Shown here one piece after another: positions 4,054 to 60,800 of a stretch of 64,000 nt of DNA. The stretch is from positions 32,001-96,000 of the IMG/VR virus record IMGVR_UViG_3300020037_003256. The stretch is one strand, 5' to 3'. Position 1 is the first letter of the stretch. Each line of letters starts with the position of its first letter. The notes beneath the pieces were generated by a model that worked only from the letters and a program-made list of their open reading frames with translations, searched no databases and was not told where the DNA came from. The stretch comes from a virus. Taxonomy: Duplodnaviria; Caudoviricetes. A program made the translations under genes and the position numbers.

Positions 4054-5571
4054 TTAGATGACCTGATTCTGGCACGCGGATAGGCGTGCCGTCAACATGA
4101 ACTCATCGTCAAATGCAGCGATACGTTGTAGTGCTGCAACCTTATAGCAGGCGTAATCTCGAACTAGTTTTTCGGCTTCGTCTTTGTCTGCAGCGGATTT
4201 CTCATTCCAAAAAACGTTTTTTAGAATAGGTGCCGCACAGCTCCGTAGAGTAGCACGTTTGCACCGGGCGTCTACGGCATTCTTCTCCAATGAATGGCTT
4301 GCAACCATTTTGCTTGCAGTTTGTCGCTGTTTGGCTGACGCCAGCTTCTCTGACATACTAAACGGATTCGATGCAAGTCGCTGAGACAACGAACCATCGT
4401 TAATCATTCGCAAGTATACGCCAGGTAACAAAGATCCTGCAATATCGACAAGAGACGCTCGCTTGGTCATATTAGCGAAATCGCGTAACGGTAGAATGAT
4501 TTTCTTATCCGCTAAAGCTGTGAGTCCTGCAGCAATCTTTTCCTGACGTTCGCTGTGTAGTTCCAGCCCAATCAAATCAGCGGGTGGCTGCACTTCCGGA
4601 ACGAACGCCAACTTCACAGGACTAGCGGCCCACTCATCTGCTTGTTGTTCCAATGCCGCCAAGCCGTATGCCAACTTAACTTGCCCAGAAACAAAAGGTG
4701 TACCTAGTGCAAAGTCTTGCGCCATAATAACAGCCATAGGTGCGGTCACGCCTAAATCAGCTGCAGACTTAGCCCCATCAATCCCAAAGAAACCGTCACT
4801 AGCTGCTTTTACCCAGTCCGCACGAACACCGAAAGCGGTGCGGTCTGCTGGGCGGAATACGCCTGACATGTCAAAGAAAATAGGATTGTCGTTTATCACG
4901 TGCAACAGATGCACGTCTTCCGCTGTTTTGATTAGGCGGGTCAGATTGTTGTAGCACCCGCCATACTTGCAGCTCGCTTCTTTGCAGTACTGTTCGCGTG
5001 TACTGGCTTTGTTGCCACAACCAGAGCAAACGTCATACGGAACGCGACAAGCCATACTCACTGGTATGGGTTCGTCTCGTGCCAGCTTTTCTAGTTCTTT
5101 GTCTGCCGGTCCGTCGCACTTCAGTAGCTCTGCCGCTTTCTTAGTCGCAGGCAAACCTACCAGCAACTCAACACGTCGCATTTCGGGATTGTAGGCAGAC
5201 GCCTTTATAATTCCGTAATGCGGATGCCCTTCGGCTTTCTTATTCTTGTGGTTGCGAAACCAATACGCGTATTTCACAAACGTGTCGTGTGTTCTCTTCA
5301 GCGTGGCTTCTGTAAAGCCATCGCCATTGCGGTTTGGTCCCCACGCTTCGCTAGCACCAAGACCGATCAAGTGGACAGGTATCTCGTCTTTGGCAAACTT
5401 AAGCCGCGAGATCTGATCGTCGAAGATGCTGGCTCCGGCGTGCCCGGCACGTTTGACAAATTCACGGCGATCTGACGCACCAAACCGGTTATCGTTTCCA
5501 AGCTTCATGATCGCGGCAATAGGCACGTCCCAGTCCCAACCCGAGGGCGAGATAGTCTTCTCCATAGCCAT
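4054..5571 (-). CDS. prohead (maturation) protease with Cys-rich insertion
   Basis: NRNGDGF, FRNH (candidate catalytic His), VSMAC (candidate catalytic Ser) followed by CSGC...C...C; start moved to MAMEK at 5571 (GAGG SD). Confidence 0.75.
   Translation of the reverse strand: MAMEKTISPSGWDWDVPIAAIMKLGNDNRFGASDRREFVKRAGHAGASIFDDQISRLKFAKDEIPVHLIGLGASEAWGPNRNGDGFTEATLKRTHDTFVKYAYWFRNHKNKKAEGHPHYGIIKASAYNPEMRRVELLVGLPATKKAAELLKCDGPADKELEKLARDEPIPVSMACRVPYDVCSGCGNKASTREQYCKEASCKYGGCYNNLTRLIKTAEDVHLLHVINDNPIFFDMSGVFRPADRTAFGVRADWVKAASDGFFGIDGAKSAADLGVTAPMAVIMAQDFALGTPFVSGQVKLAYGLAALEQQADEWAASPVKLAFVPEVQPPADLIGLELHSERQEKIAAGLTALADKKIILPLRDFANMTKRASLVDIAGSLLPGVYLRMINDGSLSQRLASNPFSMSEKLASAKQRQTASKMVASHSLEKNAVDARCKRATLRSCAAPILKNVFWNEKSAADKDEAEKLVRDYACYKVAALQRIAAFDDEFMLTARLSACQNQVI
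4209..4222. repeat. dispersed palindrome AAAAAACGTTTTTT, copy 1 (intragenic, encodes LKNVFWN)
   Basis: ATTCC-A6CGT6-AGAAT. Confidence 0.9.
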
Positions 5572-5572
5572 G

Positions 5573-9949: not shown

Positions 9950-12622
9950 TTAGTTTCTGGCTGCTTCGTGGATGTTTGGTTCTCCAGCATCTGCAGAACC
10001 CAAGCCAGTGGAGTTCATAGACCCAGGACCACCACCAACCGTTTTCTCTTTCAAGAAGAGTACGACGTCCCCAAGAACCTCGAAAGCGTTCCGGATAGAG
10101 TCTTCTAGTTCTGGCAGATCTTGCTTTCCGTAGCGATCCTCGAATTCTTCTTGATGCCAGTAGAACATGAACAAGATGCGGCCCAACTTGTCCAGGGCCT
10201 TCATCAAATCACCCAAATACCGATCGACTAGTGAGTCCTGCCGCACAGACTTCAACATGCCGCTAATCATGGCAACGTCGAACACTTCTTTCTGTCCGCT
10301 TTGTGCTGCCTGTTGTGCCATTTGCATGGCATGTTGGTCAGGCTGATAAAACGGATCATAAATGGAAGGATCGGTCAGCTGTGACTGCATACCGTCCACA
10401 GGCATGAATTCTTCCTGCGGATAGATTGCATTAACCGCGTTATGCGGTCCCATCTGTTCCATACCCATCTGCGGGGATGGGAACGAAGGGGCACCTGGCC
10501 CAGGTTGCAAGTTTCCGTCCATGTACGGTGAAGCGTACTTCACAAGAAACTTGGCACTAACGTTCCGGTACGCCTTTGCTGCCGCTTCTTTCAACATCTC
10601 ACGCGCCTGAAACTCTCGCAATCCGTGGTCACGAACTAGCGATATCAGTGCAGCTTTCTTCGTAAGTTGTTGTGATCCTCGCGGCCCTTTAATCACCACT
10701 TGCGTGCCTGTATCGAGTAACGACACAACGCTGGCCTGCTTATGAAAAAGCATCTGCAAGTCGATCAGGTTGCCAGGTTGAATTGGCTGCTCTTTGCTTC
10801 CAGCCTCAATGTCTTCGCTTGAGCTAACAGAACACATGATGCTCAACGGTACATCGTCGTCTTCGTCTTTCTTCTTCGGTTTGGGTGGATCCGAGATCTT
10901 AATTAACTTGTAGCTTTCTGGGATAGAAAGCTCACCGTTAACCGACCGAAGACCCGAGCCTTTCCGGTGATTGATATACACGCGAGCCTTAATGGAGTTA
11001 TAGCCAAGCTCCCAGTCCTGAGGTCTATCCAGCTTAGCTACGCACTTACGACGATCGTTGTAAGAGCAGTAATCCATCCACGCTACAGAATACACACCGT
11101 CGCCGAAATCGTCATTCACACGAAACGGACAGGTACCGCTTCCGTTGGCGTGTACAGCAACGTACGTACCACCCTTCTCCAGCGTCTTAACCTCTTTAAG
11201 GTTATCTACGTACTTCGTCCAATCGGCAGGCACCGGACAGTCGCACTGCTTAGCCCAAAGATTGGTACGATGAATGTTTTTCCAATCCCGTGGAGAATCC
11301 TTACGAAGTACGACACAGAAATCTTCTCGACCCCGGCCCGAGTGCGGGTTAGAAATTACGATCATTTCGGAGAACTTCCCAGGCTTTTCCAAAACCTCGT
11401 ACAGCCCTGTCTCGGAAGGATTCGTCATCTCCGCGTTGACTTGCGTGTTGTACGCGATACTTGTAGCATGCGGGTCACGTTTGTCTTTGATGAGGATGGT
11501 ATCCTTCATCAGCTTCTCGCGTTCCTCGTCCGTCAACTCCGGCTTATTTTCTTTAATGCCGCTAGGTGCATCTGCGTCCACACCTAGCTCGTCTGCTGCG
11601 TAGATGTACAAGCCCGCGTTTTTCTCCGGCTTCGGTGGTTCCGGAATCAAGCTCCACGGCTCCTTGGACTTGTTCTCTTTCTTCTTGTCTTTGTCGCTAC
11701 TCGTCTGTGGTGGAACAATGTAGCTTTCTGCTCGTTTAAGTAGGCTGCTTTCATTGTCCTTGATCTTCTGGGCCATCTTCGTGAAGAAGTCGTGGCCATA
11801 GAAGCGATCAAAACCACGTTTGATAAGCGGGTATCGAAGACAAGCTTTCTCAAACGCCGTCTTCAGTACACCAAAGTCCCCAAGGAAATTGTGCATGTCG
11901 AACTTAGCTGCAGTACTGGCCAAAGCCGCAGTCAGAGGTTTTTCTCGCACACTGGAGAACTCAAGCGCACCAGTGTAGCCCGGGAACAAAGCGTTAGCTT
12001 GCTTCGTAGCCATAGCCATGACGACAGGTAAAGCTCCGTGTGTCCACGAGGCCAAACAAGGATTGAGCGGAGTAGAATCACTCCCGTATTTCGTGCCTAC
12101 AGGCGGACGAGACAGCTTAGACATGTTGGGCATTAAGCCGCCAAGCTGGTGCGTGTTTTGGTCAACTCCCTCGCCTAAGACGTGTGGTCTTCGCGAGATT
12201 AAATAGTTGACCCAGTTTTCTTTCATAGGCACAAAGGTGTCTTGCTTCTTTATGTAAAGAAGCTCGTGGCCTTTTAAATCGCCGTTCAAAAAGAATACAG
12301 GCCCGTACAGCCACTGATCGCCAACCTTAAAACCAAATAGCCCCATGGCTTTGGTGTTATCTTCGTTGCGATCGACAAGCTGAAATCCGATGATGAAGTC
12401 AATAAGTCTTGGGGCTTTATCCTTAGCATACGCGTAGGCCAAGGAGCTGAAGGCTTGTTCGAAGCCTTGCTCCTGCTCACCCCCTAGTGACGCCTGTTTC
12501 CAGTGAACTAGCGATGCGTTGTTAAGGATATTGCGTAGCTCAGTACGAGTCGCCTTTGACGTCCAAAAATGGTCAAAGGTGGTCGCCCGTTTTTCAAAAA
12601 GCGTTTTTTGAAGTGCCAACAT
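9950..12622 (-). CDS. large putative virion structural protein (~890 aa)
   Basis: Segmented by K-x-A motifs (EKRA, WKQA, LKRA, EKNA, HKQA, VKYA); start at ATG 12622 with GGAAGG SD. Confidence 0.65.
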   Translation of the reverse strand: MLALQKTLFEKRATTFDHFWTSKATRTELRNILNNASLVHWKQASLGGEQEQGFEQAFSSLAYAYAKDKAPRLIDFIIGFQLVDRNEDNTKAMGLFGFKVGDQWLYGPVFFLNGDLKGHELLYIKKQDTFVPMKENWVNYLISRRPHVLGEGVDQNTHQLGGLMPNMSKLSRPPVGTKYGSDSTPLNPCLASWTHGALPVVMAMATKQANALFPGYTGALEFSSVREKPLTAALASTAAKFDMHNFLGDFGVLKTAFEKACLRYPLIKRGFDRFYGHDFFTKMAQKIKDNESSLLKRAESYIVPPQTSSDKDKKKENKSKEPWSLIPEPPKPEKNAGLYIYAADELGVDADAPSGIKENKPELTDEEREKLMKDTILIKDKRDPHATSIAYNTQVNAEMTNPSETGLYEVLEKPGKFSEMIVISNPHSGRGREDFCVVLRKDSPRDWKNIHRTNLWAKQCDCPVPADWTKYVDNLKEVKTLEKGGTYVAVHANGSGTCPFRVNDDFGDGVYSVAWMDYCSYNDRRKCVAKLDRPQDWELGYNSIKARVYINHRKGSGLRSVNGELSIPESYKLIKISDPPKPKKKDEDDDVPLSIMCSVSSSEDIEAGSKEQPIQPGNLIDLQMLFHKQASVVSLLDTGTQVVIKGPRGSQQLTKKAALISLVRDHGLREFQAREMLKEAAAKAYRNVSAKFLVKYASPYMDGNLQPGPGAPSFPSPQMGMEQMGPHNAVNAIYPQEEFMPVDGMQSQLTDPSIYDPFYQPDQHAMQMAQQAAQSGQKEVFDVAMISGMLKSVRQDSLVDRYLGDLMKALDKLGRILFMFYWHQEEFEDRYGKQDLPELEDSIRNAFEVLGDVVLFLKEKTVGGGPGSMNSTGLGSADAGEPNIHEAARN
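12596..12609. repeat. dispersed palindrome copy 2 (AAAAAGCGTTTTTT, 1 mismatch; intragenic)
   Basis: TTC-AAAAAGCGTTTTTT-GAA; encodes QKTLFE directly before KRA. Confidence 0.8.
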
Positions 12623-14104: not shown

Positions 14105-17100
14105 TTAGTAACCAGGATCAACGATTTGCCGTCGCTGTAAACGATCGAGCATGCTGGCATCTGGTTTGCCGAAGTTGAAACCGCCTATGCCTGCAGCGGG
14201 TGGCTGCGTGTCCGAGAACGTAGGCGTTAGCGGCTGAATTAGCGGCGGAGGCCCTTGGGGCATAAACGAGAAGCGAGCCGGTGTATTGTCCGGTGGTGCT
14301 GCCCGCGGTGTTTGTCTACGTTTATCAGCTGCAATAGCGTCGTTAATTTCGAACGCCAAGCTCGTATTACCGACCTTGGCTGCCCGTTCGGCTAACTGCT
14401 GCAGCTGTGTCACCCTTTGCACATTGGCCGGGGTGCCGGGCGATAACTGCAAAGACGTTAGTTCTTCCCCTAACCACTCCTTGAACGCATCTTTGTCATA
14501 AGGACTCGCCGTATTGTTCAACACTTTATCTGCAACGCCCTTGCCGTGCTGTAGACGCACGTTTTTATACGTCTGCTCAGCGTCTGTCCGTAACTGTCGT
14601 TGCGTACTGAGATACTGTGCATTTGCTTTATCTCCGCCCCAGGCCTGATTTACAAACTTGTTGGTCGAGATATGCTTGGCGTCAGCGTCCTGCACAATCT
14701 TACGGTTACGTACTAGTTTCTCCTGCTCGTCTGCGGTTAGGACTCGGCGACGTGCTGCTTGCTCCAAGTACTGTACGTACGCATGGGCATGTGCCGCTTG
14801 GTTAATATCCGTGCGTTGGGCTTGTTCTTGGTTTGCGTTATGATTCTTCCATGTGTCTTGAAGCACTACGCTAGACGCGCCAATGTTAGCCCCGGGATTG
14901 ATAACGTTGTCCAGTATATTACCGGCGTTGTCCCATATCCCTTCTCGCGGACGCATCTTGTCTTCAAACTTAGCACGCAACTCATCATCAGAAGTCAGGG
15001 CTGTCATCGCAGTCTCAACGCCGATGTTCAGCAGCGGTACTCGTTTTGCTAAGTTCAAAAGTCCCTTACCCGCACGCTTCAGTGCTTCGTCTCTCGCTTT
15101 ACGGGCAATCTCTCGCTCAACTTTGTTACGGAACAAGTCACGAGCACCGTTGTACATCGGACGTACTAACATCCGGTGCACTGCGCTACCCGTGACGGGC
15201 GAGGCCCAGGCGTGAAGAGATTTCTGCCACCACGAATTAGCTCCCTTGGCTTCTTGCAACAGTTCGTAATCCGATACGTCGCCCTCCGGTGCAACATTTG
15301 TCATCAGATGTTGCATCACGTAGTCATTAGGTACGCCCGTGGTCTGAAACTCTCTCAACTCTTGTACGGTCTTCTCCATCTCCGGAATATCCGGATTCGC
15401 AGGCTCGCTTGCCTTGAGCTGCACTATTTGTTCCTGCAGATCCGCGATTCGTTTACCTGGGTCGCCGCCAACCGTTTGCAGTATCTGCCCATTCAGCTGC
15501 TTACGCGTCTCTTCGAATTTTGGCTGCCCCGGTTCGTATCCGTTCTTCTTAAGCAGATACGCACGACGCGCGGAATCCATCATTTTCTGTTGCGCTTGCT
15601 GATCCGTAGTATTCGCACCTAATGTCGCCTTGAAAGCATCAAACTGTTTGTTGCCACTTTCCCATCCGCTCATCTTCGCAATCTGTTGAACAAGTGCATC
15701 AGGTTGCGATAAGTTGGGAACAGCAGTAGGAACTATTGGCGGCAGCGCCGGAGCCTGTGGTTTTGCCTGCATGGCATTAGGCTTCGCAGGATCGTTTTGT
15801 TGTCCAAGCAATCCGTTCCATTTCGGGACGATGGCGTCATTGTCTCCGATCAAAGAATCAGACCCGTCACCGAATTGCCGTGGAGCTCCGTTCTGCCCGT
15901 ACGTTAACGAAGCAACAGCATCGCTATCGAGCAACGAGCCGAATCTCGCGATGTCTCCAAAGTGCCCACCGAAACCCGATCCCGGGTTATTACGATCACC
16001 ACCACCCGCAACGAAATTAGCAGCCATTTCTGGGTCGTCGAACTGTGTCAGTATCCCAGACGAATTGGCTGCCCCCGTAAACGGCGTGTTGGCTTTGTAA
16101 GGTCCACGCTGCACGCTATCTGTCCATGCGTTATCCCGAACACGCCCTGGATGTATTTCACCTGGGGCTGCCGGCGTCGTAGGTGTACCTGGTACGGCTG
16201 TCGCGGTCGGTGCCTGTGGAACCGCGGGAACACTTGGCGGTGTCGGTGGTCCCGCGGCATTGGGTAAGAACGTGTAATTGTTTGCACGAGATTGGCCTGG
16301 TGCGTTGTTTGCACCGGTACTTCCTGGCATCGGGTTACGTGTAGCCGTCACAGGGGCAGCGGTAGAGCTACCAGTAGAACCAGGTGTAGTCGTATCAACC
16401 TTTGGCGCTGACGACATAGCCGCTGCTTTTATCAGGGCCAAAGCTTCTTGTTGCAGTTCGTCCGCGGATAGTTTGAACAACCCAGTAGGTTTTGGTTTAT
16501 CCTCTTTAGGTTTGATCGGTGCCGCGATAGACGGGGCCTGTGATACAGGAGACTTTGCACGAGGATCACCAAATGGCTGTCCTTCTGGTGGTGGGGCCGT
16601 ACCCTTCTCAGAAGAACGAACAGCGCCAACACGGCCAAAGTCAACAGCACGGGCTAGACCTGGTACAAAGCTGGTCCCTAATTCGTCGGATACAGCTCCG
16701 TGGTGCGTCGCATCAAGCAACGACGACTTCAACCCGGAACCGTACATACGCGTCATCCAGTCTGGATCGTACTGAAGTGAGTACATCCCGCGGATCATGT
16801 TCGACTGAAATGGTGCTGGATCTTTATGTACTGCAACAGAGTTTACGCCAAAGTGCTGCAGCTCTTTCAAAACAGACGGGCGTACTTTGGTTCCAATTGA
16901 ATAGTGCAGTACGGGCCGCTCAAGATATTTGCCAAGTGCTTTCTTCGGATCCAGTTCTTCGTGCCCTTCTCGCGGTTCGTAAAGGTGCTCCATGGTGGAG
17001 TACGGAACGACGTCGTCCGGTACGTTGTCACCGTACTCATCCGTAAGCTTTACGTGGTTAATGAGCCCACGAGCCAGTAACTCCACGTTACGCCGGTTGA

Positions 17101-18466
17101 CCTTCATACCGGCGTCTTGCATGGCCTTACGAAAGGCGTTCACGAAGTACCGTTTGCCTTCCCCAATACCTTTGTGTTCTGTAATCACAGCTGGGTTAGG
17201 AAACCCTTCTGTGATAACGTCGCCGGCCTCAACCGAATCCCCTTTCTTTACCTTCAATTCTACGCCAGCAGGTACGTAATGCCGCTGATCTCCGATCCAG
17301 ACGTAATTACCACCGGCAGGCGCTTCCTCAATCGCGGAGACGGTACCATCCTTCTCCGAATGCGTGGCTCCGCCTTTAAAAACTTTCGGTACTTGGATCA
17401 GCTGGTTGATGTAGGCGAAACCGCCAACGGCTTTTTCCTGGCCAGCGACACCACCAGAGTGTTTAGCCGAAAGCTGTCCTTGTGCCAAAGGCTCAGACAA
17501 AGCCTGTGCTGCCGTAAGCCCTACCTGTTCTCCACGACCAGGTAATGTACCTTTCTCGCGTACACCAACGTCGCGAGCGTACACACCGCCATCCGGAGAC
17601 CCGCCAATAAGCGGGCTACGCACAAGGATACGGTCGTGTCCTAGGCTTTTAATGTGCTTTAGTATTTTGGGTGTCAGGGCTGTGTTGCGTTTGTACGGCC
17701 CCACGTCTTTGGCCAATAACGATCCTTCGTTGTCCCCGTCGTCCGTATCGACAGGTAGGCCACGGTCCGGTAGGTCCCGTTCGTCATCATCCCCAACAAC
17801 CATTAAACGGTGCGAGACTTGGTTCAGCTGTTTACTAAGATACCCAGCATCTTGGGTAGCGAACTTAGTCGCCATAGTACCACGGCGAGCACCGTACATG
17901 CTCGCCCAATACTCCATTGGCTTTAACCCTTCACTGTAGCTCGACAGTACAGGTAAAGGGATTACGTCGTCACGATGGTCGGAGTACAGCATGTCCCCGC
18001 CCAGTAACGACCCCAGGTTCATCTTGTTACCACGAGAACCGGATACAACCTGCATAGCAAGCGGGTTGTTAGCCTTTACCGCTTCGTCGTAGATATCGTC
18101 GATTTGTTTCTGTTGATAGGACCCGACCGTCTTTACAATTAGCTGCTTACGTTGTTCTGGCGTGATATCGTCGCGGCTAAGGATCTGCTGCATCTTTCGC
18201 TGGATCGCTATCCGATTGCGTTTAGCTACAGCAGAAGTTCTTAAATGCTGCAGGCCAAAAGTGTACCCGCCGAATTCTGTTGCTACGGTCCGCCCGATAT
18301 CGCTCAGTTTCTTAGACACCTCAACGTACTTTTCCGGATGCTTTTGCGCAAGCTCTTGCAGCAGCTGATTCGACCCTTTCTTGTCAAGTACGCGATTATC
18401 GTCTCGCATGTCTTCGGGTAGTGCTTCGTTAACAAGCAATCGCCCCATGGTTGTCCGTAGCATCAT
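14105..18466 (-). CDS. rpoC: RNA polymerase beta' C-terminal half fused to a ~780-aa extension, 1453 aa
   Basis: TTMGR; SGSRGN; bridge helix EGLKPMEYWASMYGARRGTMATKFATQDAGYLSKQL; trigger loop GEQVGLTAAQALSEPLAQGQLSAKHSGG. Confidence 0.9.
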   Translation of the reverse strand: MMLRTTMGRLLVNEALPEDMRDDNRVLDKKGSNQLLQELAQKHPEKYVEVSKKLSDIGRTVATEFGGYTFGLQHLRTSAVAKRNRIAIQRKMQQILSRDDITPEQRKQLIVKTVGSYQQKQIDDIYDEAVKANNPLAMQVVSGSRGNKMNLGSLLGGDMLYSDHRDDVIPLPVLSSYSEGLKPMEYWASMYGARRGTMATKFATQDAGYLSKQLNQVSHRLMVVGDDDERDLPDRGLPVDTDDGDNEGSLLAKDVGPYKRNTALTPKILKHIKSLGHDRILVRSPLIGGSPDGGVYARDVGVREKGTLPGRGEQVGLTAAQALSEPLAQGQLSAKHSGGVAGQEKAVGGFAYINQLIQVPKVFKGGATHSEKDGTVSAIEEAPAGGNYVWIGDQRHYVPAGVELKVKKGDSVEAGDVITEGFPNPAVITEHKGIGEGKRYFVNAFRKAMQDAGMKVNRRNVELLARGLINHVKLTDEYGDNVPDDVVPYSTMEHLYEPREGHEELDPKKALGKYLERPVLHYSIGTKVRPSVLKELQHFGVNSVAVHKDPAPFQSNMIRGMYSLQYDPDWMTRMYGSGLKSSLLDATHHGAVSDELGTSFVPGLARAVDFGRVGAVRSSEKGTAPPPEGQPFGDPRAKSPVSQAPSIAAPIKPKEDKPKPTGLFKLSADELQQEALALIKAAAMSSAPKVDTTTPGSTGSSTAAPVTATRNPMPGSTGANNAPGQSRANNYTFLPNAAGPPTPPSVPAVPQAPTATAVPGTPTTPAAPGEIHPGRVRDNAWTDSVQRGPYKANTPFTGAANSSGILTQFDDPEMAANFVAGGGDRNNPGSGFGGHFGDIARFGSLLDSDAVASLTYGQNGAPRQFGDGSDSLIGDNDAIVPKWNGLLGQQNDPAKPNAMQAKPQAPALPPIVPTAVPNLSQPDALVQQIAKMSGWESGNKQFDAFKATLGANTTDQQAQQKMMDSARRAYLLKKNGYEPGQPKFEETRKQLNGQILQTVGGDPGKRIADLQEQIVQLKASEPANPDIPEMEKTVQELREFQTTGVPNDYVMQHLMTNVAPEGDVSDYELLQEAKGANSWWQKSLHAWASPVTGSAVHRMLVRPMYNGARDLFRNKVEREIARKARDEALKRAGKGLLNLAKRVPLLNIGVETAMTALTSDDELRAKFEDKMRPREGIWDNAGNILDNVINPGANIGASSVVLQDTWKNHNANQEQAQRTDINQAAHAHAYVQYLEQAARRRVLTADEQEKLVRNRKIVQDADAKHISTNKFVNQAWGGDKANAQYLSTQRQLRTDAEQTYKNVRLQHGKGVADKVLNNTASPYDKDAFKEWLGEELTSLQLSPGTPANVQRVTQLQQLAERAAKVGNTSLAFEINDAIAADKRRQTPRAAPPDNTPARFSFMPQGPPPLIQPLTPTFSDTQPPAAGIGGFNFGKPDASMLDRLQRRQIVDPGY

Positions 18467-18483
18467 GCACCTTGAGGTATTCT

Positions 18484-18497
18484 AAAAAACGTTTTTT
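18484..18497. repeat. dispersed palindrome copy 3 (intergenic, 17 nt before the beta'-C start)
   Basis: CT-A6CGT6-AG, perfect 18-bp palindrome. Confidence 0.9.
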
Positions 18498-18547
18498 AGC
18501 GTCGCACCGTTCATCCTGCAACGGTGCGATGGATAGCGAGAATTGCG

Positions 18548-19132
18548 TCAGTCTGCGTCATCGTCTTCAGTAGTTTCTTCCGCAGGTGCTGTGGGTTGTG
18601 CTTCCACAGGATCAGCCGGTAGAACTTCTTCGGTACCCGCCAAGAACGCGAACTCGTTAGTCGGTTCTTCCGGTGCCTTCGCCGCAATCGCCTGAGTTGG
18701 TACGACCGCAGTGTCAAGATCTTGGCGAGCGATCGCAATGCGCTGATACTGTGCTTCTGTAATCTCAGATCGCGTTACCGCGAGATCCCAAGCAACCCAG
18801 AACTTTTTGCGAAGCCCCTCATCGGGAATATGGAGGCGTACGGATTGGTCTGTGTCCCGCACAACCGCGATCGCATCCTTTACTCTCGCCCGTAAATTCT
18901 CCAAGGTATCAACTGTGAACTGTACCACAGTCGCACCAACACGCTTGGTACCGGCCTTACTCCGTGCCGTATGTCGCGTGTCGTTTACATGGGGGCCAAG
19001 TGCCGAGGCACTACCGGACGCATAGATTTTGTCCGTCGATTTGTCGTCGTTCCACTTTGTAACGTTCCACTTATCCGCGTCTTTTCTTTGTTGTGGTTTA
19101 CGTGGGGACTGACTTGGAATTTCACTAGCCAA
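18548..19132 (-). CDS. hypothetical protein with acidic tail (~194 aa; probable TTG start)
   Basis: TAGGAG SD (stop of previous gene) before TTG at 19132. Confidence 0.6.
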   Translation of the reverse strand: MASEIPSQSPRKPQQRKDADKWNVTKWNDDKSTDKIYASGSASALGPHVNDTRHTARSKAGTKRVGATVVQFTVDTLENLRARVKDAIAVVRDTDQSVRLHIPDEGLRKKFWVAWDLAVTRSEITEAQYQRIAIARQDLDTAVVPTQAIAAKAPEEPTNEFAFLAGTEEVLPADPVEAQPTAPAEETTEDDDAD

Positions 19133-19142
19133 AAGGAATCTC

Positions 19143-19406
19143 CTATTTAGGTCCTGCAAGCAATCGCACACCAGGATCTGGTTTAGGCATCACCAGCCTG
19201 TCGACAACGACCGTCGTTTTAATGCCCAATACTTGCAACATTCGAGAGAAGTCGCTGCAACCTACACAGCTTACAGCGATCGCGCCATCTGGTCCGTAAA
19301 CGGCACCAACAGAGACAGGCGTATTCAGATCGTCCATGACGACGAACTGATTTACGTCAAGAACTATTGGAGGTCCGCCGACCTTAGGTATTAATTGAAT
19401 TCGCAT
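19143..19406 (-). CDS. hypothetical protein, 87 aa
   Basis: TAATG overlap with the upstream gene. Confidence 0.65.
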   Translation of the reverse strand: MRIQLIPKVGGPPIVLDVNQFVVMDDLNTPVSVGAVYGPDGAIAVSCVGCSDFSRMLQVLGIKTTVVVDRLVMPKPDPGVRLLAGPK

Positions 19407-20104
19407 TAGTTTCTGCTGTTACGCAGCTTAGCTATCGCCGCTGCTCGATTTTGCATTACAGTAAAACCCGTAGTGTCGAACGCTACGCCGTTCGCCTTAT
19501 AGCTTCCTGCCTTCTCCCCGCCAGGAGAACCAGCGCCCTGCATCGGATCCATTCCAGGCATTTGTCCGATAGCCCCTCCACCGCCCCCACCGCCAGCCCC
19601 AGACGTAGTCGGTTGTCCGTTCGCCATAGCTGTCAGCTTTTCGGGCGTGGCCACCATATCCTGTGCGGGGATAGATACACCCAGCGTATCGGCGATCTTG
19701 GCCAAGATATTTTTTATTTGCATAATCTCGACGTTTACGTCGATCTTAGGCTTCAGACCGCCACCCGCACCAGCACCCGCCCCGCCACCACCCGCACCTC
19801 CGCCCATTTGTTGTTGCATCTGCTGGATCATCTGCATCATCTGGTCGATACGTGGGTCACTTGGTGGTGCACCACCTCCACCCATACTAGGATCTCCACC
19901 GGGAGGCATACCACCACCCATGCTAGGGTCTCCGCCTGGAGGCATTCCTCCACCTGCGCTTGGATCACCACCTGGAGGCATTCCTCCCCCACCAGCACTA
20001 GGATCGCCACCAGGCACGAACGCAAACTTACTCATACCAGCTTGTCGCGTCATGCTTAACAACGCCGGGTTGATTAGGTGATCGTCATTGTAACCGTTGC
20101 TCAC
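19406..20104 (-). CDS. Gly/Pro/Met/Gln-rich low-complexity protein, 232 aa
   Basis: Four PGGDPS(A/M)GGG repeats; SKFA and EKAG motifs; AGGAG SD. Confidence 0.7.
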   Translation of the reverse strand: MSNGYNDDHLINPALLSMTRQAGMSKFAFVPGGDPSAGGGGMPPGGDPSAGGGMPPGGDPSMGGGMPPGGDPSMGGGGAPPSDPRIDQMMQMIQQMQQQMGGGAGGGGAGAGAGGGLKPKIDVNVEIMQIKNILAKIADTLGVSIPAQDMVATPEKLTAMANGQPTTSGAGGGGGGGAIGQMPGMDPMQGAGSPGGEKAGSYKANGVAFDTTGFTVMQNRAAAIAKLRNSRN

Positions 20105-20125
20105 GTGAAACTCCTTTTACCGTGA

Positions 20126-21883
20126 TTACTCAAGGATATGCACTTCGGTGTCAGCTGAAATCTCGCCACGTGCAGAGGCTTGTATAGCGTCCGCTTTATT
20201 GCGGAACGTTCTAGCCTTTGCTTTCTTTTTCCCGTCATGCGTTTTAGTCGCATAGTATAAACCCGCAAGATACTGCTGCCCGGGCTTATGCACAGGGCTC
20301 TTAAAGTCAGACGGACTCAACAGTGAGCGACTCGGCAACAGACGATCGTAAGCTTCATTAACCGCAGCATCAGTCATCGGCACGTGAAACTGCATAGCGT
20401 CCCCGTCAAAGTCCGCGTTGAACCCGCTCACAATTAATGGGCTAACCTGCAGCACGTCACCTTTAACGAGCTTTGGCCTGAATGCCATAATCCCAAACTT
20501 GTGGAGCACAGGAGCACGGTTGATATATACCGGTCTGTTCTCCATCTCTTCCTGCAGTATGTCTCTTGCCAGCGGTGTCTTATCTTCGACACTTCGCAAA
20601 GCCGCACGCATATCCATCCCTTTTCGCCGTAGTCGTCGAACGATGGCTTTGCGGTAGACCTCGAAGGCCTGCTTTTCTGGAATACCTACTGTATCCATAT
20701 CGTAGTCCGGGTTGGGTGTGATTACAGCACGCCCAACAGAGTCTACAGTACTGGAAATTAATTTCCGCTGTACCGTACCAAATTTTGGAGAGTTTCCAAA
20801 TATGCTTTTAAGAACTCCTTTAACCCCTTTCTCCTGTAGCTTAGGATGCACAGGATCGCCAAGACCCGTGACAGCTTTGAACGCGTGGTAAACAGCTAGA
20901 CGCTCTGGACCGACACCATCGTCCCCAACCTGTTTCTGTAGATCGGTGTAGTTGTTCTTCGCGTCAAGGAGTTCCTTGTAAAGATAGTTAGGATCAGAGA
21001 TTAACGGGATACCGCTGTCGCCCATCAAACTAACTGGGCGAAATGCTGGTGGAAGCACAGGCACTTTATCCAACACCCACTCTCTTGGATGCAGATTTAA
21101 CCGCTTAGCAGACTTCAAGAAGCCCCATCGCCGCACAGCCGCATCACGCGAAGAAGCTTTCCCGGAGTAGAATTGTGCCTTAGCTTCAGCGATGGATTTA
21201 TCGATATCGATGTTGTCCAAAGCTTTCGCAATTGCCTGTGGGCCAGTACCGAAACCAGATAAAGAATGATCGCCCTGTAGGGTTGCCTCGTACTGTTTCC
21301 CGGTAAGACCCAGCAACCGACGAATTGGTTCTTCCATCACCGGGTTAGGCATTGGCTCTGGTAGCTTGATATAGCTCCACCGTTTACCGTTGTGCCCACC
21401 TGTAAGCACGTCATCAAACAAACCACCTTTAACCGGCTTTAAGTCTTTATCGAAGTGTACGGTTTCCCCTGATTTAATTTCACGGTCGCCAGCCAGTGTA
21501 TCTACGTCTTTTTTGGTCAAAGCCATCACTTGTGTGCGGTGCCCATCACGCACGACGTTGATGCCTGCAGACTTTAGTTGGTTTACAAATTTCTCGTAAA
21601 CCATAGGCACTCGCGGCGTACCTGGTGCGTGTCCCGACATAAACTGCATCCAGATATCTTCGTTCTTCTGTCCGCGAAACGCGCCAGCATCGTTCAACGT
21701 TGCCGTAGCCCCGTGAGACAATAATGCGTTCACGTCCAACAAGGATATCCGCTTAGAATTGGAAACTACGATGCCAGCGGCAAGCGTATACAAGTGCGTA
21801 TCGTCCACACAGATGTCGAACACAGGTACAGTGTGGTTCGCATCTACGGGACCTGCATACGGTGAAATAGATTTAATTTTCAC
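20126..21883 (-). CDS. rpoC: split-intein C-fragment + C-terminal end of RNAP beta + catalytic N-half of beta'
   Basis: GTG start with GAGGTGG SD; intein end ...IVVSN|S; KRISLLDVNALLSHGA (cf. beta QRFGEMEVWALEAYGA); VPVLPPAFRP; NRAPVLHK; FNADFDGDAM catalytic loop. Confidence 0.92.
   Translation of the reverse strand: MKIKSISPYAGPVDANHTVPVFDICVDDTHLYTLAAGIVVSNSKRISLLDVNALLSHGATATLNDAGAFRGQKNEDIWMQFMSGHAPGTPRVPMVYEKFVNQLKSAGINVVRDGHRTQVMALTKKDVDTLAGDREIKSGETVHFDKDLKPVKGGLFDDVLTGGHNGKRWSYIKLPEPMPNPVMEEPIRRLLGLTGKQYEATLQGDHSLSGFGTGPQAIAKALDNIDIDKSIAEAKAQFYSGKASSRDAAVRRWGFLKSAKRLNLHPREWVLDKVPVLPPAFRPVSLMGDSGIPLISDPNYLYKELLDAKNNYTDLQKQVGDDGVGPERLAVYHAFKAVTGLGDPVHPKLQEKGVKGVLKSIFGNSPKFGTVQRKLISSTVDSVGRAVITPNPDYDMDTVGIPEKQAFEVYRKAIVRRLRRKGMDMRAALRSVEDKTPLARDILQEEMENRPVYINRAPVLHKFGIMAFRPKLVKGDVLQVSPLIVSGFNADFDGDAMQFHVPMTDAAVNEAYDRLLPSRSLLSPSDFKSPVHKPGQQYLAGLYYATKTHDGKKKAKARTFRNKADAIQASARGEISADTEVHILE
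21758..21883 (-). other. split intein C-fragment (IntC, 42 aa)
   Basis: MKIKSI N-terminus; block F VFDICVDDTHLY; terminal Ser-Asn followed by Ser+1 (21755-21757). Confidence 0.88.
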
Positions 21884-22167: not shown

Positions 22168-22168
22168 G

Positions 22169-42496: not shown

Positions 42497-42501
42497 AGAT
42501 T

Positions 42502-54706: not shown

Positions 54707-54721
54707 CTTTAAGTTAAGGCT

Positions 54722-54735
54722 AAAAAACGTTTTTT
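54722..54735. repeat. dispersed palindrome copy 7 (intergenic)
   Basis: GGCT-A6CGT6-GAAAT. Confidence 0.9.
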
Positions 54736-54739
54736 GAAA

Positions 54740-54976
54740 TCACTCATCACGCTTGCATGATAGGCCGAACTGTCCTGCAACTGAAGCCCAGAACGCGTCG
54801 TTAGGCCTCATGTCTTTTGGTGTGCCCTTGTACCGAATCGTTTGAAACAAATCATCAGAACCACGTGCTTCCATGTCGCGTCTGAAAGCTTCCAATTCTC
54901 GGCACAAAGCCTCGTCAGCCGCAGCATACATTTCCTGCATTATGCTGCAGTTAATCACGTCAGGTTCCATGCTCAT
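54740..54976 (-). CDS. hypothetical protein, 78 aa
   Basis: ATGA overlap with upstream gene. Confidence 0.55.
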   Translation of the reverse strand: MSMEPDVINCSIMQEMYAAADEALCRELEAFRRDMEARGSDDLFQTIRYKGTPKDMRPNDAFWASVAGQFGLSCKRDE

Positions 54977-57484: not shown

Positions 57485-57489
57485 ATCTG

Positions 57490-57858
57490 TTACTCCTTCT
57501 TAGGCTTGTTTCTGCCCCCGGGAGATCCTCGAAAGATATCCTCACCCTCGATACGACCGTAGTAAACCTCCATGAGCTTTACGTTGGTCAGAGCCTCGAA
57601 TTGGTGCATGGTAAACGGTTCAACCGAAAGCACGCATCCCTCTGTAAGCGTATGGGTCGTGATACGCTTACTTTGGTCCCAAACGTGCACCAAAAGAGTT
57701 CCACGCATCACATAGAACTCATTGGTTTTCGCTAAGTGGTAATGTTCGCTGGAGAATCCGCCCTTGCGGATCTCCGCGTACCATACCTCATGCGTTGCAT
57801 CCCGAAAAGCACAATAGGTTTTACCCCACGGTTTTTTTACCTCTTGGAGCTTTTTCAT
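57490..57858 (-). CDS. cupin-fold sugar isomerase-like protein, 122 aa
   Basis: KPWG; SEHYH..K..EFYV; MHQF. Confidence 0.75.
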   Translation of the reverse strand: MKKLQEVKKPWGKTYCAFRDATHEVWYAEIRKGGFSSEHYHLAKTNEFYVMRGTLLVHVWDQSKRITTHTLTEGCVLSVEPFTMHQFEALTNVKLMEVYYGRIEGEDIFRGSPGGRNKPKKE

Positions 57859-60800
57859 TCTTGCGTCCTTGCAAAGTTGTTAGGGTTCCGCATCATCTGA
57901 GAGATCTGTGCCAATCGCTGTTCGTTCTCCTGCTGCTGCAACCATTCGTCCCGAGACTGCGGAACGTTTGGCGGAGCCTGATTCACGGCCTGACCTCTTG
58001 GTCCAATCATACCACCTTGTTGCGGTTGCTGCCCCTGCTGTTGGTTTTGATTACCAAGTAGCAAAGGAAGCAACCCAGCTAGCGTAGATGCTCCGCCCAT
58101 ACCAGCCAATGCAGGCGATCCAGCTGCAATTCCGCCTGCACCACCCATAGCACCACCCAGAATCATGAGTTTCTGTAATGGACTCATGTTGTCTGGATTC
58201 ATTCCTAGGCTGCGGAATATACCATCTGCGTGGCCCATCATGCCACCCAACATACCTTTATTTCCGCCAATGGCCTGCAGAGGATCGAACTTGCCTTCTT
58301 GGTTCAGCAGACCACGTTGGGCCATGTATTTATCCGCAAAGTCTGCTGTGTGGTTTTGAATCTCTGGTAGCATTTCTGCCACTGTGCGACCTGCGGCATT
58401 TCGCATAGATCCTTCCATGCGATCTTCCAGTATGTTCAAACCACCACCAACTGTTGTGGCACCTAAAGCACCCACACCCAAAGCACGACCGACTAGCCCA
58501 GGACGAATACCTAAGCCACGCACAGCTCCAGTTTGCCCAGAACCAATGCGTGTACCGCCTTCCGACAACGTACGCCCAAATAGCGATGGCATGGGTCTGC
58601 CACGCACATAGGCATTAAGGGCTCGTGCGGGGTAGATCAGTGGTTTAAGGAACCCCATAGCAGCTTCGTTTCCGAAGTTGTTTAGTCCTTTGTTAGCGGC
58701 AGCAAACCCCTGATCCGCTTTGCTTAGGATGTTGTGCATCATGGGATTATTAGGAACATACGGCAGTCTGGCTCCGTGATAGTAGTTCGGATTCACGAGG
58801 TTCCCGGTCCCAAGATCAATTGTGTTGCGATTCGCCCCATTGGCATAAAACTTATTTATGCCCCGTTGCTTCAGTACGTGGGCTCCTTGTCCCATTGCAC
58901 CTAAACCCACACCTCCCCACGCTCCTGTGCGTGCAAATGCACCACCTGTGTCGTATCCGAGCAGTTTATCTGCCCCAACGTCCAAAGCCGTACCTGCCCC
59001 TGCGCCTACCCCGGCAAGACGCATACCAGCCATAGGCACTGAAAGACCACCACCTGCAGCTGTATTGGCATATCGCCGTAAACCAGGATTAAATGCAGCA
59101 GCACCAGCCGCCATACCTCGATAATTCAACTTAATGCCCAAACCTGGCACTGTCATATGGTCGCCGCCAAATCCAAGCTCATCCCCTGCAAATCCACCCC
59201 CTAAAGCCCCCATAGTCGTGGCACCGGCCTGGGCCTTAAAGCCGTTAGAGAAACCGCTTCCCCACGATGCAGGTGCATGTGCAGCTGTATTCGCAGCTCC
59301 CGCCGCAGCAGTGTTTGCCGTATTTGCTGCATTGTTTCCACCAGACCACCAATTCTTCAAACCTGTTCGTGCTTTGTTTAATCCTTCACCAAATCGGCTC
59401 CAAGGCCCTGCAATCTTTTCCAACGCTCCTTGCAGCTCATAAGCTGCGTCCGGTCCGTAGTCCATGCCCACTTTCTCTACGGCTAAGTGGGGATCTACCC
59501 CATCTGTAGCACAACGCAGAAAGAACCCTTTGGCAAAAGGGCTCAATTTGGAATACGTAGCCAGCTTCTCCACGGAGAATTGGTTTGCATTCCAAAAAAC
59601 GTTTTTTAGACTCGCTGTCTTCGAACCCAAGGCCATTGCCTCGCTCTGTACGTCTTCCGTGGCTTCTGCGTTCCCTATTGGGTTATCTGCCTGATGTTTG
59701 TCCTGCAACAAAGACTGCGTCACACCCATTTGGTGATTATCTCGCGGAGTAGGCTGCTGCCGCGGAGATGGCACTTTCGGGTTAGTAGGTAAAGGCAATG
59801 GCGGTGGATCCTGCATAGGACTGGTAGTAGGTGCCCCCGTTGTTGGGTCCGGTTGTGTAGGTGGGGGACCGCCAGGACCACCTGGTCCGCCTGGGCCGCC
59901 TGGGCCTGGAGGTGGCCCACCTTGCATTGCGTTAGGATCCTGCATAGGTGCTCCTGTCATAGGGTCTATGCTGGGTTGGCCCATTGTTCCGGGAATAGGT
60001 GCCCCGCCGTTAGGTGGTGGCATAGCCGGAAGGCCTGGTGGTGGAGGTGCCATACCGGCTGGAGGCACTGCCTGATTGGCCGTTAAACCTGGTGTAGGCG
60101 GCAGGGTGGCTGCATGCTTGAACAGAGTAGTTACGATTTTCGGCATGTATTGGGCGGCGGATTTAAGGGTGTCCCATCCAGGTTGTACGACCCCATACGG
60201 CCCCACCTTATTCCCCGGTGCAACCCCCGCCACCTGCTGTTGCTGTCCATTCCCCTGTGCAGCCCCCACATTCATACCAAACTGGGCTCCTGCAACGTTT
60301 CCTGCAAGATTTACCCCATTTCCGCCTCCATATCCTCCCTGTCCATTCCCTGCTCCTGCATACCCTCCCTGCCCACTTGGGCTAAAACCAGCACCTACAC
60401 TTTGTGGTTTATGCAGTGAACTTTGATGGGATTTAGTCAAAGATTTGGTGCCAGTTTGTGGATTTTGCGAAGAGCTAGTCTGCACTTCTGCTCTCTTAAC
60501 ATTTCCCTTGGCAGCTACCACAGCCAATTCCAACCAATCTGGTAGCGCCCTTGCTTCGCCCATTTTCGGCATAGGCATTTGATATTGGCCCTGCGGCATG
60601 GGAGTTTGTTGTTGTAAATTTTGGGTATTTTGCTGTTGTTGGGCTGCCTGTCCCACACCAGCAGCGGTAGCTAATCCGACCTTTCCTGGGGATGCTTTGG
60701 TCACAGGATTAGGATTTCTTTGTGCGGCATTAGCTGCTTGGGCAATACCGGAATTAGGCCCCATTCCGTACATAGATGGAAAGTGCATTTGTCCGCCTAG

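What the first reader, a model, noticed from the sequence alone, without database searches (positions are those of the whole stretch)
4204..59612. Eight dispersed AAAAAACGTTTTTT palindromes placed upstream of starts or beside K-x-A linkers
Seen: six perfect copies (4209, 18484, 27868, 42483, 54722, 59594) and two single-mismatch copies (12596, 32601), 4.7-12.2 kb apart, often extended by ATTCY...AGA. Uniform-composition expectation for one 14-mer is 64000/4^14, about 0.0002. Four copies lie 10-38 nt upstream of a start codon. The four intragenic copies all abut a K-x-A motif (LKNVFWNEKSAA, KTASLKNVFWN, KRASLKNVFE, QKTLFEKRA), putting the same peptide into unrelated proteins at apparently tolerant linkers. 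Inference: selection acts on the DNA. This fits a genome-wide site for a dimeric protein (parS/matS-like organisation, packaging or ejection signal, or virion-RNAP loading). Local candidate binders are the LuxR HTH (37117) and the Lys-rich protein (35543).
Basis: partly seen in the sequence, partly recalled or inferred. Interest (0 to 1): 0.85.

Follow-up and report, generated by a model that had tools for sequence, protein, structure and literature searches.

The report
Lineage-specific dyad signals between phage genes
The repeated 14-letter palindrome is the core of a 24-bp mirror-symmetric DNA signal placed about every 9.5 kb at gene junctions of an uncultured 219-kb phage that carries its own RNA polymerase; related phages keep their own versions at some of the same junctions, so it is most likely a private transcription signal read by a paired phage protein.

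Summary
It holds 6 perfect and 2 one-mismatch copies, against 0.02 expected by chance. The whole 219,270-bp virus record holds 23.

In gene orientation the element is a 24-bp dyad, ATTCT-A6-CG-T6-RRAAT. All genes lie on one strand. Eighteen of 23 copies sit in the 4.8% of DNA that is non-coding. The upstream stop codon usually lies in the left arm, and the next start lies 10-56 nt from the dyad centre. Spacing is more even than random.

Relatives carry their own versions: A4-CCGG-T4 (30 copies), A5-GTAC-T5 (14), ATAAG-YR-CTTAT, CGGTGCTTAATTACCG and others. Some occupy the same junctions, for example upstream of the RNA polymerase beta'-C gene. One site inside an orthologous gene reads LKNVFW, LKTGFW or SKSTFW according to each phage's motif, so selection acts on the DNA.

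The RNA hairpin is weak and its arms do not covary. No -35-like block exists. A separate, family-conserved sigma-type promoter motif also exists.

Best reading (about 0.4): a transcription-unit signal read on duplex DNA by a symmetric phage factor, with the 69-aa GerE-type HTH as candidate, most likely a start site for the phage polymerase. A stoperator-like gate is the main rival.

This scan noted similar motifs before, in this genome and in what appear to be related phages.

The parts
4204..4227 (-). Dyad copy (core 4209-4222) inside the 505-aa gene 4054-5571, 56 codons before its stop and 208 nt upstream of the next gene (2684-4000)
   Evidence: The same codon position carries each phage's own motif in G003, G004 and G001.
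12591..12614 (-). One-mismatch copy (core 12596-12609) at codons 5-9 of the 890-aa gene, just after a putative ATG that has its own Shine-Dalgarno (SD) sequence
   Evidence: The N-terminus is not conserved in relatives, so the start is uncertain.
18479..18502 (-). Dyad copy (core 18484-18497), 17 nt upstream of the ATG of the RNA polymerase beta'-C gene and 4 nt after a -16.8 kcal/mol hairpin
   Evidence: The same junction carries the lineage's own motif in G001, G003, G004 and G007.
27863..27886 (-). Dyad copy (core 27868-27881), 25 nt after the stop of the 385-aa gene and 10 nt before the ATG of a 127-aa gene
   Evidence: The orthologous junction has a motif in G001 and G003.
32596..32619 (-). 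One-mismatch copy (core 32601-32614) inside the InPase/HAD-domain gene 32071-33414, read as LKNVFE
   Evidence: Not conserved at the aligned position in G003 or G004.
42478..42501 (-). Dyad copy (core 42483-42496), 5 nt after an upstream stop codon and 38 nt before the ATG of a Cpn10/GroES-like gene
54717..54740 (-). Dyad copy (core 54722-54735), 4 nt after an upstream stop codon and 15 nt before a GTG opening a 197-aa frame
59589..59612 (-). Dyad copy (core 59594-59607) inside the 1008-aa gene, read as LKNVFWN
   Evidence: No homologue of this stretch was found in relatives.
37117..37326 (-). 69-aa stand-alone GerE/LuxR-type helix-turn-helix protein, the candidate dimeric reader of the dyad
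   Evidence: PF00196 at 50.5 bits against a cut-off of 23.5. PDB matches are to DNA-binding domains of LuxR-family regulators and response regulators, including NarL and EvgA. Homologues are in G003, G004, G008 and G001, with a variable recognition helix.
14105..25372 (-). Phage multisubunit RNA polymerase genes: beta (22169-25372), beta'-N (20126-21922) and beta'-C (14105-18466)
   Evidence: Pfam Rpb2_6 at 1.7e-50, Rpb1_2 at 4e-26 and Rpb1_5 at 2.6e-20.
41165..41195 (-). A separate element: a family-conserved sigma-type bipartite promoter-like motif, CTAAAT-N17-CAYAAT, with AACGCGT before the -10
   Evidence: Four copies in this genome, and also present in G003, G004 and G005.

Best explanation
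The 14-mer is the core of a 24-bp dyad, ATTCT-A6-CG-T6-RRAAT in gene orientation. I read it as a lineage-specific transcription signal that marks the heads of transcription units in a jumbo phage with all genes on one strand and its own multisubunit RNA polymerase.

I think it is read on double-stranded DNA by a two-fold symmetric phage factor. The best candidate is the 69-aa GerE-type HTH protein at 37117-37326.

Most likely it makes the phage polymerase start about 10 nt downstream of the dyad centre, in the purine-rich right arm. That would give mRNAs with very short leaders, or none.

Shown: the motif, its copy number, its junction placement, its even spacing, its lineage-specific versions at conserved junctions, and selection on the DNA.

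For: 1. Copy number. There are 23 copies in 219 kb. It is the top over-represented spaced word in this genome, and the equivalent motif is top in G003 and G004.

2. Placement. Eighteen of 23 centres lie in the 4.8% non-coding DNA (binomial P = 4e-20). The upstream stop ends exactly 11 nt before the centre at 7 sites. The next start lies 10-56 nt after the centre in 17 of the 18 cases called, and never closer than 9-10 nt in this genome, G003 or G004.

3. Shine-Dalgarno (SD) use. Genes that begin 10 nt from the centre have no room for an SD sequence. Their N-termini are confirmed by orthologues, and where the SbcD-like orthologue does not abut a motif it has an SD.

4. Relatives. Relatives carry different motifs at some of the same junctions: beta'-C in five genomes, the SbcD-like gene in three, the g11 gene in three by motif scan plus a one-mismatch copy in G005, and the intragenic site ahead of the head genes.

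5. Terminator context. A terminator-like hairpin immediately precedes the motif at the beta'-C junction in this genome and in G003; G001 shows the same by eye.

6. Duplex-DNA reading. The centres ACGT, CCGG and GTAC are all self-complementary. The RNA hairpin is weak (0 to -7.5 kcal/mol) and the arm positions are mostly mismatched rather than covarying.

7. The candidate reader. The sigma-like protein has a nearly invariant region-4 helix and matches a separate conserved bipartite motif, so the fast-changing dyad needs a fast-changing reader. The GerE-type recognition helix varies between phages.

8. Spacing. The coefficient of variation (CV) of the gaps is 0.50 against 0.94 for random placement (P = 0.0002), and the smallest gap is 3.1 kb, as expected for operon-sized units.
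Against: - No transcript ends are available, so a start site is inferred, not shown.
- A directional promoter need not be a palindrome. In G003, G007 and G008 the asymmetric versions occur in both orientations, and both precede gene starts.
- A conventional sigma-type promoter motif already exists in the family.
- Many hairpin terminators are followed directly by the next SD sequence with no dyad, so read-through is common and terminator context proves little.
- SD-less starts make up about 20% of my crude gene calls, so SD-less abutting genes are weak evidence.
- One copy lies just downstream of a putative start (12596).
- No GerE-type homologue was found by tblastn in G005, G006, G007 or the fetched part of G009, although G005, G007 and G009 have junction motifs.
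Confidence: 0.4

Rival explanations
1. Gate rather than start. The same protein-DNA complexes act as roadblocks or repressor sites at gene junctions, like stoperators. They would attenuate or time the long read-through transcripts that begin at the few sigma-type promoters.
For: - Dyad symmetry, self-complementary centres and orientation-independence in G003, G007 and G008.
- Tighter coupling to the upstream stop codon than to the downstream start.
- A separate conserved sigma-type promoter motif exists.
- Published precedents: sites genome-wide in mycobacteriophages that terminate elongation (PMC9283540), and the 17-bp dyad repeats of Cluster O phages (PMC4351075).
Against: - Only about 4 sigma-type promoters were found for 280 genes over 219 kb.
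- No integrase search was done, and nothing suggests a temperate lifestyle for this record.
- Genes abutting the motif lack an SD sequence.
- A terminator directly upstream of the dyad at the beta'-C junction in this genome and G003 would make a roadblock redundant.
Confidence: 0.25
2. Directional single-block promoter read directly by the phage polymerase with its sigma-like or another subunit, with no dimeric factor. The symmetry would be incidental, for example an easily melted A/T block.
For: - In this genome the left half, TCTAAAAAACG, is nearly invariant. Every departure from the 14-bp core in gene orientation lies in the right half, and the first two positions of the right arm are always purines.
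- The step across the dyad centre is pyrimidine-purine in every lineage, including G005, where the centre is G-Y-R-C and often not palindromic.
- In G001 the three copies with the TTACAAA arm upstream sit 13-79 nt before called starts, against 50-102 nt for the three inverted copies.
Against: - Both orientations of the asymmetric versions precede gene starts in G003, G007 and G008.
- Three independent centres are self-complementary (about 2e-4 by chance, my own calculation).
- The sigma-like factor's DNA-reading helix is conserved while the dyad changes.
Confidence: 0.1
3. Chromosome-level site for genome organisation, condensation, packaging or transcription-independent ejection, in the manner of parS, matS or Noc-binding sites.
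For: Even spacing (CV 0.38-0.50), dyad symmetry and 14-30 copies per genome.
Against: - Extreme preference for gene junctions, and fixed register with stop codons and ribosome-binding sites.
- Conservation upstream of particular genes across phages whose motifs differ.
- No ParB or MatP search was made.
Confidence: 0.08
4. RNA-level element: a hairpin that acts as a translational operator, processing site, 5' stabiliser or terminator.
For: It is transcribed in the sense strand, lies next to the SD sequence or AUG, and six of the eight window copies can form an 7-11 bp A-U-rich stem.
Against: - Stability is 0 to -7.5 kcal/mol, and two of eight do not fold.
- Arm positions are mostly non-complementary, with no covariation.
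- The central 4 nt would be loop, yet they are self-complementary in three lineages.
- No G+C-rich stem is followed by a U tract.
- There is no Rfam match.
- The G005 and G007 versions lack T runs.
Confidence: 0.05
5. Selfish or neutral palindromic repeat of the REP type, spread by a copying mechanism and tolerated only between genes.
For: Near-identical copies, an imperfect palindrome with the same asymmetry in all copies, and both orientations in some relatives.
Against: - It is retained at the same junctions, and at one codon position, across phages in which the sequence itself has been replaced.
- Spacing is even.
- No search for a RAYT or Y1 transposase was made.
Confidence: 0.04

Closest known systems
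17-bp dyad repeat of Cluster O mycobacteriophages (TGTTCGG-N3-CCGAACA; PMC4351075)
   Same: More than 30 near-invariant inverted-repeat copies are spread through a phage genome.
   Different: The sequence is unrelated, and those phages are siphoviruses of about 70 kb that use host SigA promoters. Here the phage has its own polymerase, the genome runs in one direction, the motif is A/T-rich, and the motif sequence is replaced between related lineages while some positions are kept.
Stoperators of Cluster A mycobacteriophages (L5 family; PMC9283540)
   Same: Numerous binding sites distributed across the phage genome act on transcription (PMC9283540 abstract). From my own knowledge, they lie in short intergenic gaps with an orientation bias.
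   Different: Stoperators are asymmetric 13-14 bp sites read by a monomeric immunity repressor of temperate phages (PMC9283540). Here the site is a 24-bp dyad, and no repressor or integrase is known.
Single-block promoters of phage-encoded RNA polymerases (T7 group; AR9 and phiKZ non-virion polymerases, PMC5312081, PMC5449584)
   Same: One contiguous conserved block sits close to the gene start, there is no -35 element, and, from my own knowledge of the T7 group, promoter sequence diverges between related phages along with the polymerase.
   Different: Those promoters are asymmetric and strictly oriented. Here the block is a near-palindrome, and in relatives it occurs in either orientation. 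No start site has been mapped.
GerE/LuxR-type regulators and their palindromic boxes (B. subtilis GerE, NarL 7-2-7 sites, lux boxes)
   Same: A small stand-alone GerE-type HTH is encoded (PF00196). From my own knowledge, proteins of this family bind 16-20 bp inverted repeats as dimers and switch late genes on or off.
   Different: Binding is untested. The strongest conservation is at the centre of the site rather than in outer half-sites. No homologue was detected in G005 or G007, which have junction motifs of other types.

Membership tests
Sigma70-type bipartite promoter | Two conserved hexamer blocks separated by 16-18 bp | tested here: not met
   Information content is confined to one block, -12 to +11, with nothing conserved from -50 to -13. 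A different motif in the same genome does meet this feature.
Intrinsic (rho-independent) terminator | A stable G+C-rich RNA hairpin followed directly by a U tract | tested here: not met
   The stems are A-U only, at 0 to -7.5 kcal/mol, and the U run is inside the stem.
Single-block phage-polymerase promoter | A contiguous conserved block immediately upstream of the transcribed gene | tested here: met
   A 24-bp block. The distance from centre to start is 10-56 nt at 17 of the 18 sites with a called start, with a floor of 9-10 nt in three genomes.
Single-block phage-polymerase promoter | A fixed orientation relative to the direction of transcription | tested here: inconclusive
   In this genome the left arm is xxTCT in 18 of 23 copies and the right arm mirrors it in 6 of 23. 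Both orientations occur in G003 (about 16:7), G007 (12:4) and G008 (about equal).
Single-block phage-polymerase promoter | A mapped transcription start at a fixed distance | not testable with these tools
Stoperator | Many sites genome-wide in short intergenic gaps | tested here: met
   Twenty-three sites, 18 of them in non-coding DNA.
Stoperator | An asymmetric site read by a monomeric immunity repressor of a temperate phage | tested here: not met
   The site is a 24-bp dyad with a self-complementary centre. No search for a repressor or integrase was made.
Cluster O-type dispersed dyad repeat | Tens of near-invariant short inverted repeats throughout a phage genome, many at ORF boundaries, shared in position among relatives | tested here: met
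   compared with PMC4351075. The resemblance is one of pattern only; the sequences are unrelated.
parS/matS-type organisation site | Placement independent of gene boundaries, together with a ParB- or MatP-type binder | tested here: not met
   Junction preference has P = 4e-20, with a fixed register to stop codons. No binder search was done.
GerE/LuxR operator | A cognate GerE/LuxR-type HTH protein encoded by the same genome | tested here: met
   PF00196 at 50.5 bits, with PDB matches to LuxR-family and response-regulator DNA-binding domains.
GerE/LuxR operator | Demonstrated binding of that protein to the site | not testable with these tools
   Needs a gel-shift or footprinting experiment.

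The most novel reading that the evidence does not exclude
A stand-alone GerE-type HTH dimer serves as the promoter-specifying subunit for a phage polymerase at dyad-symmetric single-block promoters. Changes in the central four bases (ACGT, CCGG, GTAC and others) would give each phage lineage a private transcription code that co-evolves with the recognition helix. Regular spacing in a one-directional genome might also let transcription pull the 219-kb DNA into the cell.
Probability: 0.15. Interest if true: 0.85.

Novelty: new variant of a known kind. Interest (0 to 1): 0.6.

Why it matters
These uncultured phages of about 180-235 kb form a large group that encodes its own bacterial-type RNA polymerase. 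As far as I could find, their gene control has not been described.

The dyad gives a concrete, testable handle: 14-30 precisely placed sites per genome, a short list of conserved target junctions, natural specificity swaps between relatives, and a named candidate reader.

If the sites are promoters, they would be an unusual symmetric class with lineage-private specificity, which could be useful as orthogonal expression parts. If they are gates, they would extend stoperator-like control to lytic jumbo phages.

In either case, the orthologous peptide that changes with the motif is a clear example of a DNA signal overriding protein sequence.

Tried and rejected
- **Chance or artefact.** Rejected.
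- **Restriction or methylation site avoidance.** ACGT, CCGG and GTAC occur at the expected frequency in every genome (observed/expected 0.88-1.09), so the centre is not a depleted site.
- **RNA hairpin.** Weak, with no covariation and no Rfam family.
- **Exact motif elsewhere in IMG/VR.** TCTAAAAAACGTTTTTT gave only single scattered hits.
- **Megablast against cultured phages.** No match. The nearest proteins are about 32% identical, in Vibrio phages D69, D148 and D181 and Salmonella phage Arash. The Arash paper does not mention promoters.
- **Literature search for the 14-mer.** None found.
- **Terminator enrichment upstream of dyads.** Only modest: mean -11.7 against -9.8 kcal/mol for background. 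Many terminators have no dyad after them.
- **SD-less genes as a signature.** About 20% of my crude gene calls lack an SD sequence, so this is weak.
- **Top repeats in G001, G004, G006 and this genome.** These turned out to be coding repeats or CRISPR-like arrays, not junction motifs.
- **Co-variation of the sigma-like factor with the centre.** No obvious pattern.

Full report
**1. Observation**

The pattern search finds exactly the eight reported copies, six perfect and two with one mismatch. Dinucleotide-preserving shuffles expect 0.02.

The window is bases 32001-96000 of a 219,270-bp virus record that is 98% complete and 50% G+C. The record has 17 perfect copies, 5 with one mismatch and 1 with two, making 23 in all.

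Long ORFs lie almost entirely on the minus strand throughout. A crude gene call gives 280 minus-strand genes covering 95% of the DNA.

**2. Anatomy**

In gene orientation the element is ATTCT-AAAAAACGTTTTTT-RRAAT, a 24-bp dyad. Information content is confined to -12 to +11 around the dyad axis, and nothing is conserved from -50 to -13 or beyond +11.

The left half is nearly invariant: A at -12 in 23 of 23, and A6C in 23 of 23. In gene orientation every departure from the 14-bp core lies in the right half. The first two bases of the right arm are always purines. A fully perfect 24-mer never occurs.

**3. Placement**

Eighteen of 23 centres lie in the 4.8% of the genome that is non-coding (binomial P = 4e-20).

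The upstream gene's stop codon usually sits inside the left arm. At 10 sites the stop ends 4 nt before the core, as in TAATTCT or TGATTCT.

The next start codon follows 3-49 nt after the core. A GGAG often begins 6-8 nt after the core, or an ATG follows only 3 nt after it.

The sites are over-dispersed. The mean gap is 9.6 kb, the coefficient of variation (CV) is 0.50 against 0.94 for random placement (P = 0.0002), and the smallest gap is 3.1 kb.

**4. The phage**

It encodes a multisubunit RNA polymerase: beta, beta'-N and beta'-C.

It also encodes a 251-aa sigma-like protein outside the window. This matches PHROG 351, 'RNA polymerase sigma factor', at 1e-8, and has a weak Sigma70_r4 hit.

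A 69-aa GerE-type HTH protein lies at 37117-37326 (PF00196, 50.5 bits). Its PDB matches are to DNA-binding domains of LuxR-family regulators and response regulators, including NarL and EvgA.

The nearest cultured relatives are remote, at about 32% identity on beta: Vibrio phages D69, D148 and D181 and Salmonella phage Arash. In Arash the polymerase subunits and a sigma factor were detected in virions (PMC10585845).

**5. Relatives**

An alignment of beta'-C retrieved 26 related loci from IMG/VR. All genomes tested for gene strand run in one direction. Each genome examined has its own junction motif:

| Genome | Size / G+C | Motif | Copies |
|---|---|---|---|
| G003 | 224 kb, 69% | GATCY-M-AAAA-CCGG-TTTT-K-RGAWS | 30 (25 with CCGG) |
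| G004 | 202 kb | GATCT-A5-GTAC-T5-RRATC | 14 |
| G005 | 186 kb, 47% | ATAAG-YR-CTTAT | 23 matches, about 11 directly before an SD sequence and a start |
| G007 | 211 kb | CGGTGCTTAATTACCG | 12 forward, 4 inverted |
| G008 | 235 kb | CTAAAA-(G/T)CCAC-TTTT | about equal in both orientations |
| G009 | 177 kb (160 kb fetched) | CTAAAAAACGGATTTT | 4 forward, 1 inverted |
| G001 | 104-kb fragment | TTACAAA-N5-TTT | 3 forward, 3 inverted |

For G003 and G004 the reversed control pattern scored 0.

The motifs are positional equivalents:
- The junction upstream of beta'-C carries the local motif in this genome, G001, G003, G004 and G007.
- The SbcD-like gene carries it in this genome, G007 and G008.
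- The g11 gene carries it in this genome, G001 and G009, with a one-mismatch version in G005.
- Other junctions are shared by two or three genomes, and many are not shared.

**6. Selection on DNA**

The intragenic copy at 4209 lies in a 505-aa protein conserved across the family. At the same aligned codons the peptide reads LKNVFW here, LKTGFW in G003 and SKSTFW in G004. Each is dictated by that phage's motif.

At those codons G001 carries its own motif version, G008 carries TCCAAATCCACTTTTTGGA, which matches its AAA-(G/T)CCAC-TTT core, and G005 keeps the right half.

The peptide is not conserved; the DNA signal is.

The intragenic copies also carry GG or GA instead of AG at the start of the right arm. 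With AG, the reading frame used at three of them would contain a TAG stop (with my own reading of the frames).

**7. What level reads it**

*RNA is unlikely.* The eight window copies fold at 0 to -7.5 kcal/mol, with z-scores from -2.9 to +1.0, and two do not form the hairpin. Arm positions outside the A/T tracts are mostly non-complementary. In this genome C at -9 faces A in about half the sites, and in G003 the -7/+6 pair is mismatched in most sites. Rfam finds only a tRNA in the window.

*The centres point to duplex DNA.* ACGT, CCGG and GTAC are all self-complementary, which a hairpin loop does not require. The chance of this for three independent tetranucleotides is about 2e-4 (my calculation). 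These words are not depleted elsewhere in the genomes.

In G003 and G007 nearly all sites pair two different half-sites, and the resulting asymmetric site occurs in either orientation. In G008 the asymmetric centre is found in both orientations about equally. In all three, both orientations precede gene starts.

Orientation-free recognition of duplex DNA is what a symmetric dimer gives.

**8. What it does**

Evidence for a role at the head of transcription units:
- The junction register.
- A floor of 9-10 nt between dyad centre and start codon in three genomes.
- Abutting genes with confirmed N-termini and no room for an SD sequence. The SbcD-like gene starts MPTIRP..., with its Metallophos domain from residue 9. 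Its G003 orthologue, which does not abut a motif, has GGAG. The g11 start is shared with G001 and G009.
- A terminator-like hairpin directly upstream of the motif at the beta'-C junction in this genome and in G003; the G001 junction shows the same by eye.
- The conserved intragenic site about 200 nt upstream of the next gene, ahead of what the scan's unchecked notes call the head genes.
- Operon-like spacing.

Cautions:
- No transcript data exist.
- Many hairpins are followed directly by the next SD sequence with no dyad.
- About 20% of my gene calls lack an SD sequence.
- One copy lies just after a putative start (12596).

There is also a second, separate motif, CTAAAT-N17-CAYAAT with AACGCGT before the -10. 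It has four copies here, one of them at window 41165-41195. It is conserved in sequence in G003, G004 and G005 despite G+C contents of 47-69%.

That motif fits the sigma-like protein, whose region-4 helix is almost invariant across the family. By inference, the fast-changing dyad needs a fast-changing reader.

The GerE-type protein fits that description. It is found in this genome, G003, G004, G008 and G001, all of which have A-tract/T-tract motifs. The base-contacting part of its recognition helix differs in each: KSYTS, RSYVN, KLHLA, KTYAN and RSILK.

tblastn did not find it in G005, G006, G007 or the fetched 160 kb of G009. G007 has only a weak PF00196 hit inside a larger open frame. The assignment is therefore tentative.

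The Lys-rich protein at 35543 has no homologue in the four relatives tested, G001, G003, G004 and G005.

**9. Verdict**

The best-supported reading is a lineage-specific transcription signal at gene junctions, read on duplex DNA by a symmetric phage factor.

I put about 0.4 on start sites for the phage polymerase and about 0.25 on stoperator-like gates. Smaller weights go to a directly read directional promoter, a chromosome-organisation site, an RNA element and a selfish repeat.

The closest described analogues are the unexplained 17-bp dyad repeats of Cluster O mycobacteriophages (PMC4351075) and the stoperators of Cluster A phages (PMC9283540).

**10. Earlier notes of this scan**

Notes of this scan describe the same motif in another window of this genome, and comparable palindromes in 210-kb phages that appear to be related. 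Those follow-ups favoured an unidentified dimeric DNA-binding protein.

My tests agree on the DNA-level, symmetric reading. They add the positional equivalence across motif types, the codon-level evidence, the separate sigma-type motif and the candidate reader.

**11. Limits**

The metagenome scan was not used.

Noticed in passing
window 41165-41195 (-); also genome plus-strand positions near 199,800, 129,600 and 24,570: A second, bipartite motif, CTAAAT-N17-CAYAAT with AACGCGT before the -10. It has 4 copies here and is conserved in sequence in G003 (3), G004 (2) and G005 (9 or more, clustered near the record ends). It is probably the promoter of the conserved sigma-like factor, and several copies are followed by structured RNA.
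   Followed up: partly
L096:11507-12230 (G004, record 151,507-152,230): A CRISPR-like array in a related jumbo phage: 11 copies of a repeat of about 36 nt (containing TAATACCTGCTCAT) at a 72-73 nt period.
   Followed up: no
L110:4401-5900 (G006): A CRISPR-like array of about 18 repeats (containing GTCGCACCCACGCGTATAGGGAAGATTGG) at a 61-nt period, near the left end of a complete 211-kb relative.
   Followed up: no
whole genome and relatives G003, G004: GCGC is depleted (observed/expected 0.41-0.59), while the other four-base palindromes at or above 50% G+C are near expectation.
   Followed up: no
whole genome: Essentially all of about 280 genes lie on one strand of a 219-kb genome. The same holds in every relative tested.
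   Followed up: partly
L029:18650-23524 (G001) compared with window 14105-18466: The beta'-C gene of G001 carries an insertion of about 450 aa that is absent here, probably an intein. G004's beta'-C match is similarly split.
   Followed up: no
many junctions, e.g. genome 137366-137432, 179499-179564 and 31119-31185 (all outside the window): Hairpins followed by TTTT(C/A)TTTA(Y)GGAG. This is a shared terminator-like tail that runs straight into the next gene's Shine-Dalgarno sequence.
   Followed up: no
genome 141487-141615 and 171280-171391: Two near-identical intergenic stretches of about 100 nt, each with an AT-rich long hairpin.
   Followed up: no
window 57121-57193 (-): A tRNA gene (Rfam, 68 bits). 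Earlier notes of the scan call it an amber suppressor.
   Followed up: no
genome plus-strand near 205,000 (gene-orientation 14,118-14,230): A tandem coding repeat built on GGTATCAGGGATACCAAGG, possibly a collagen-like Gly-X-Y stretch.
   Followed up: no
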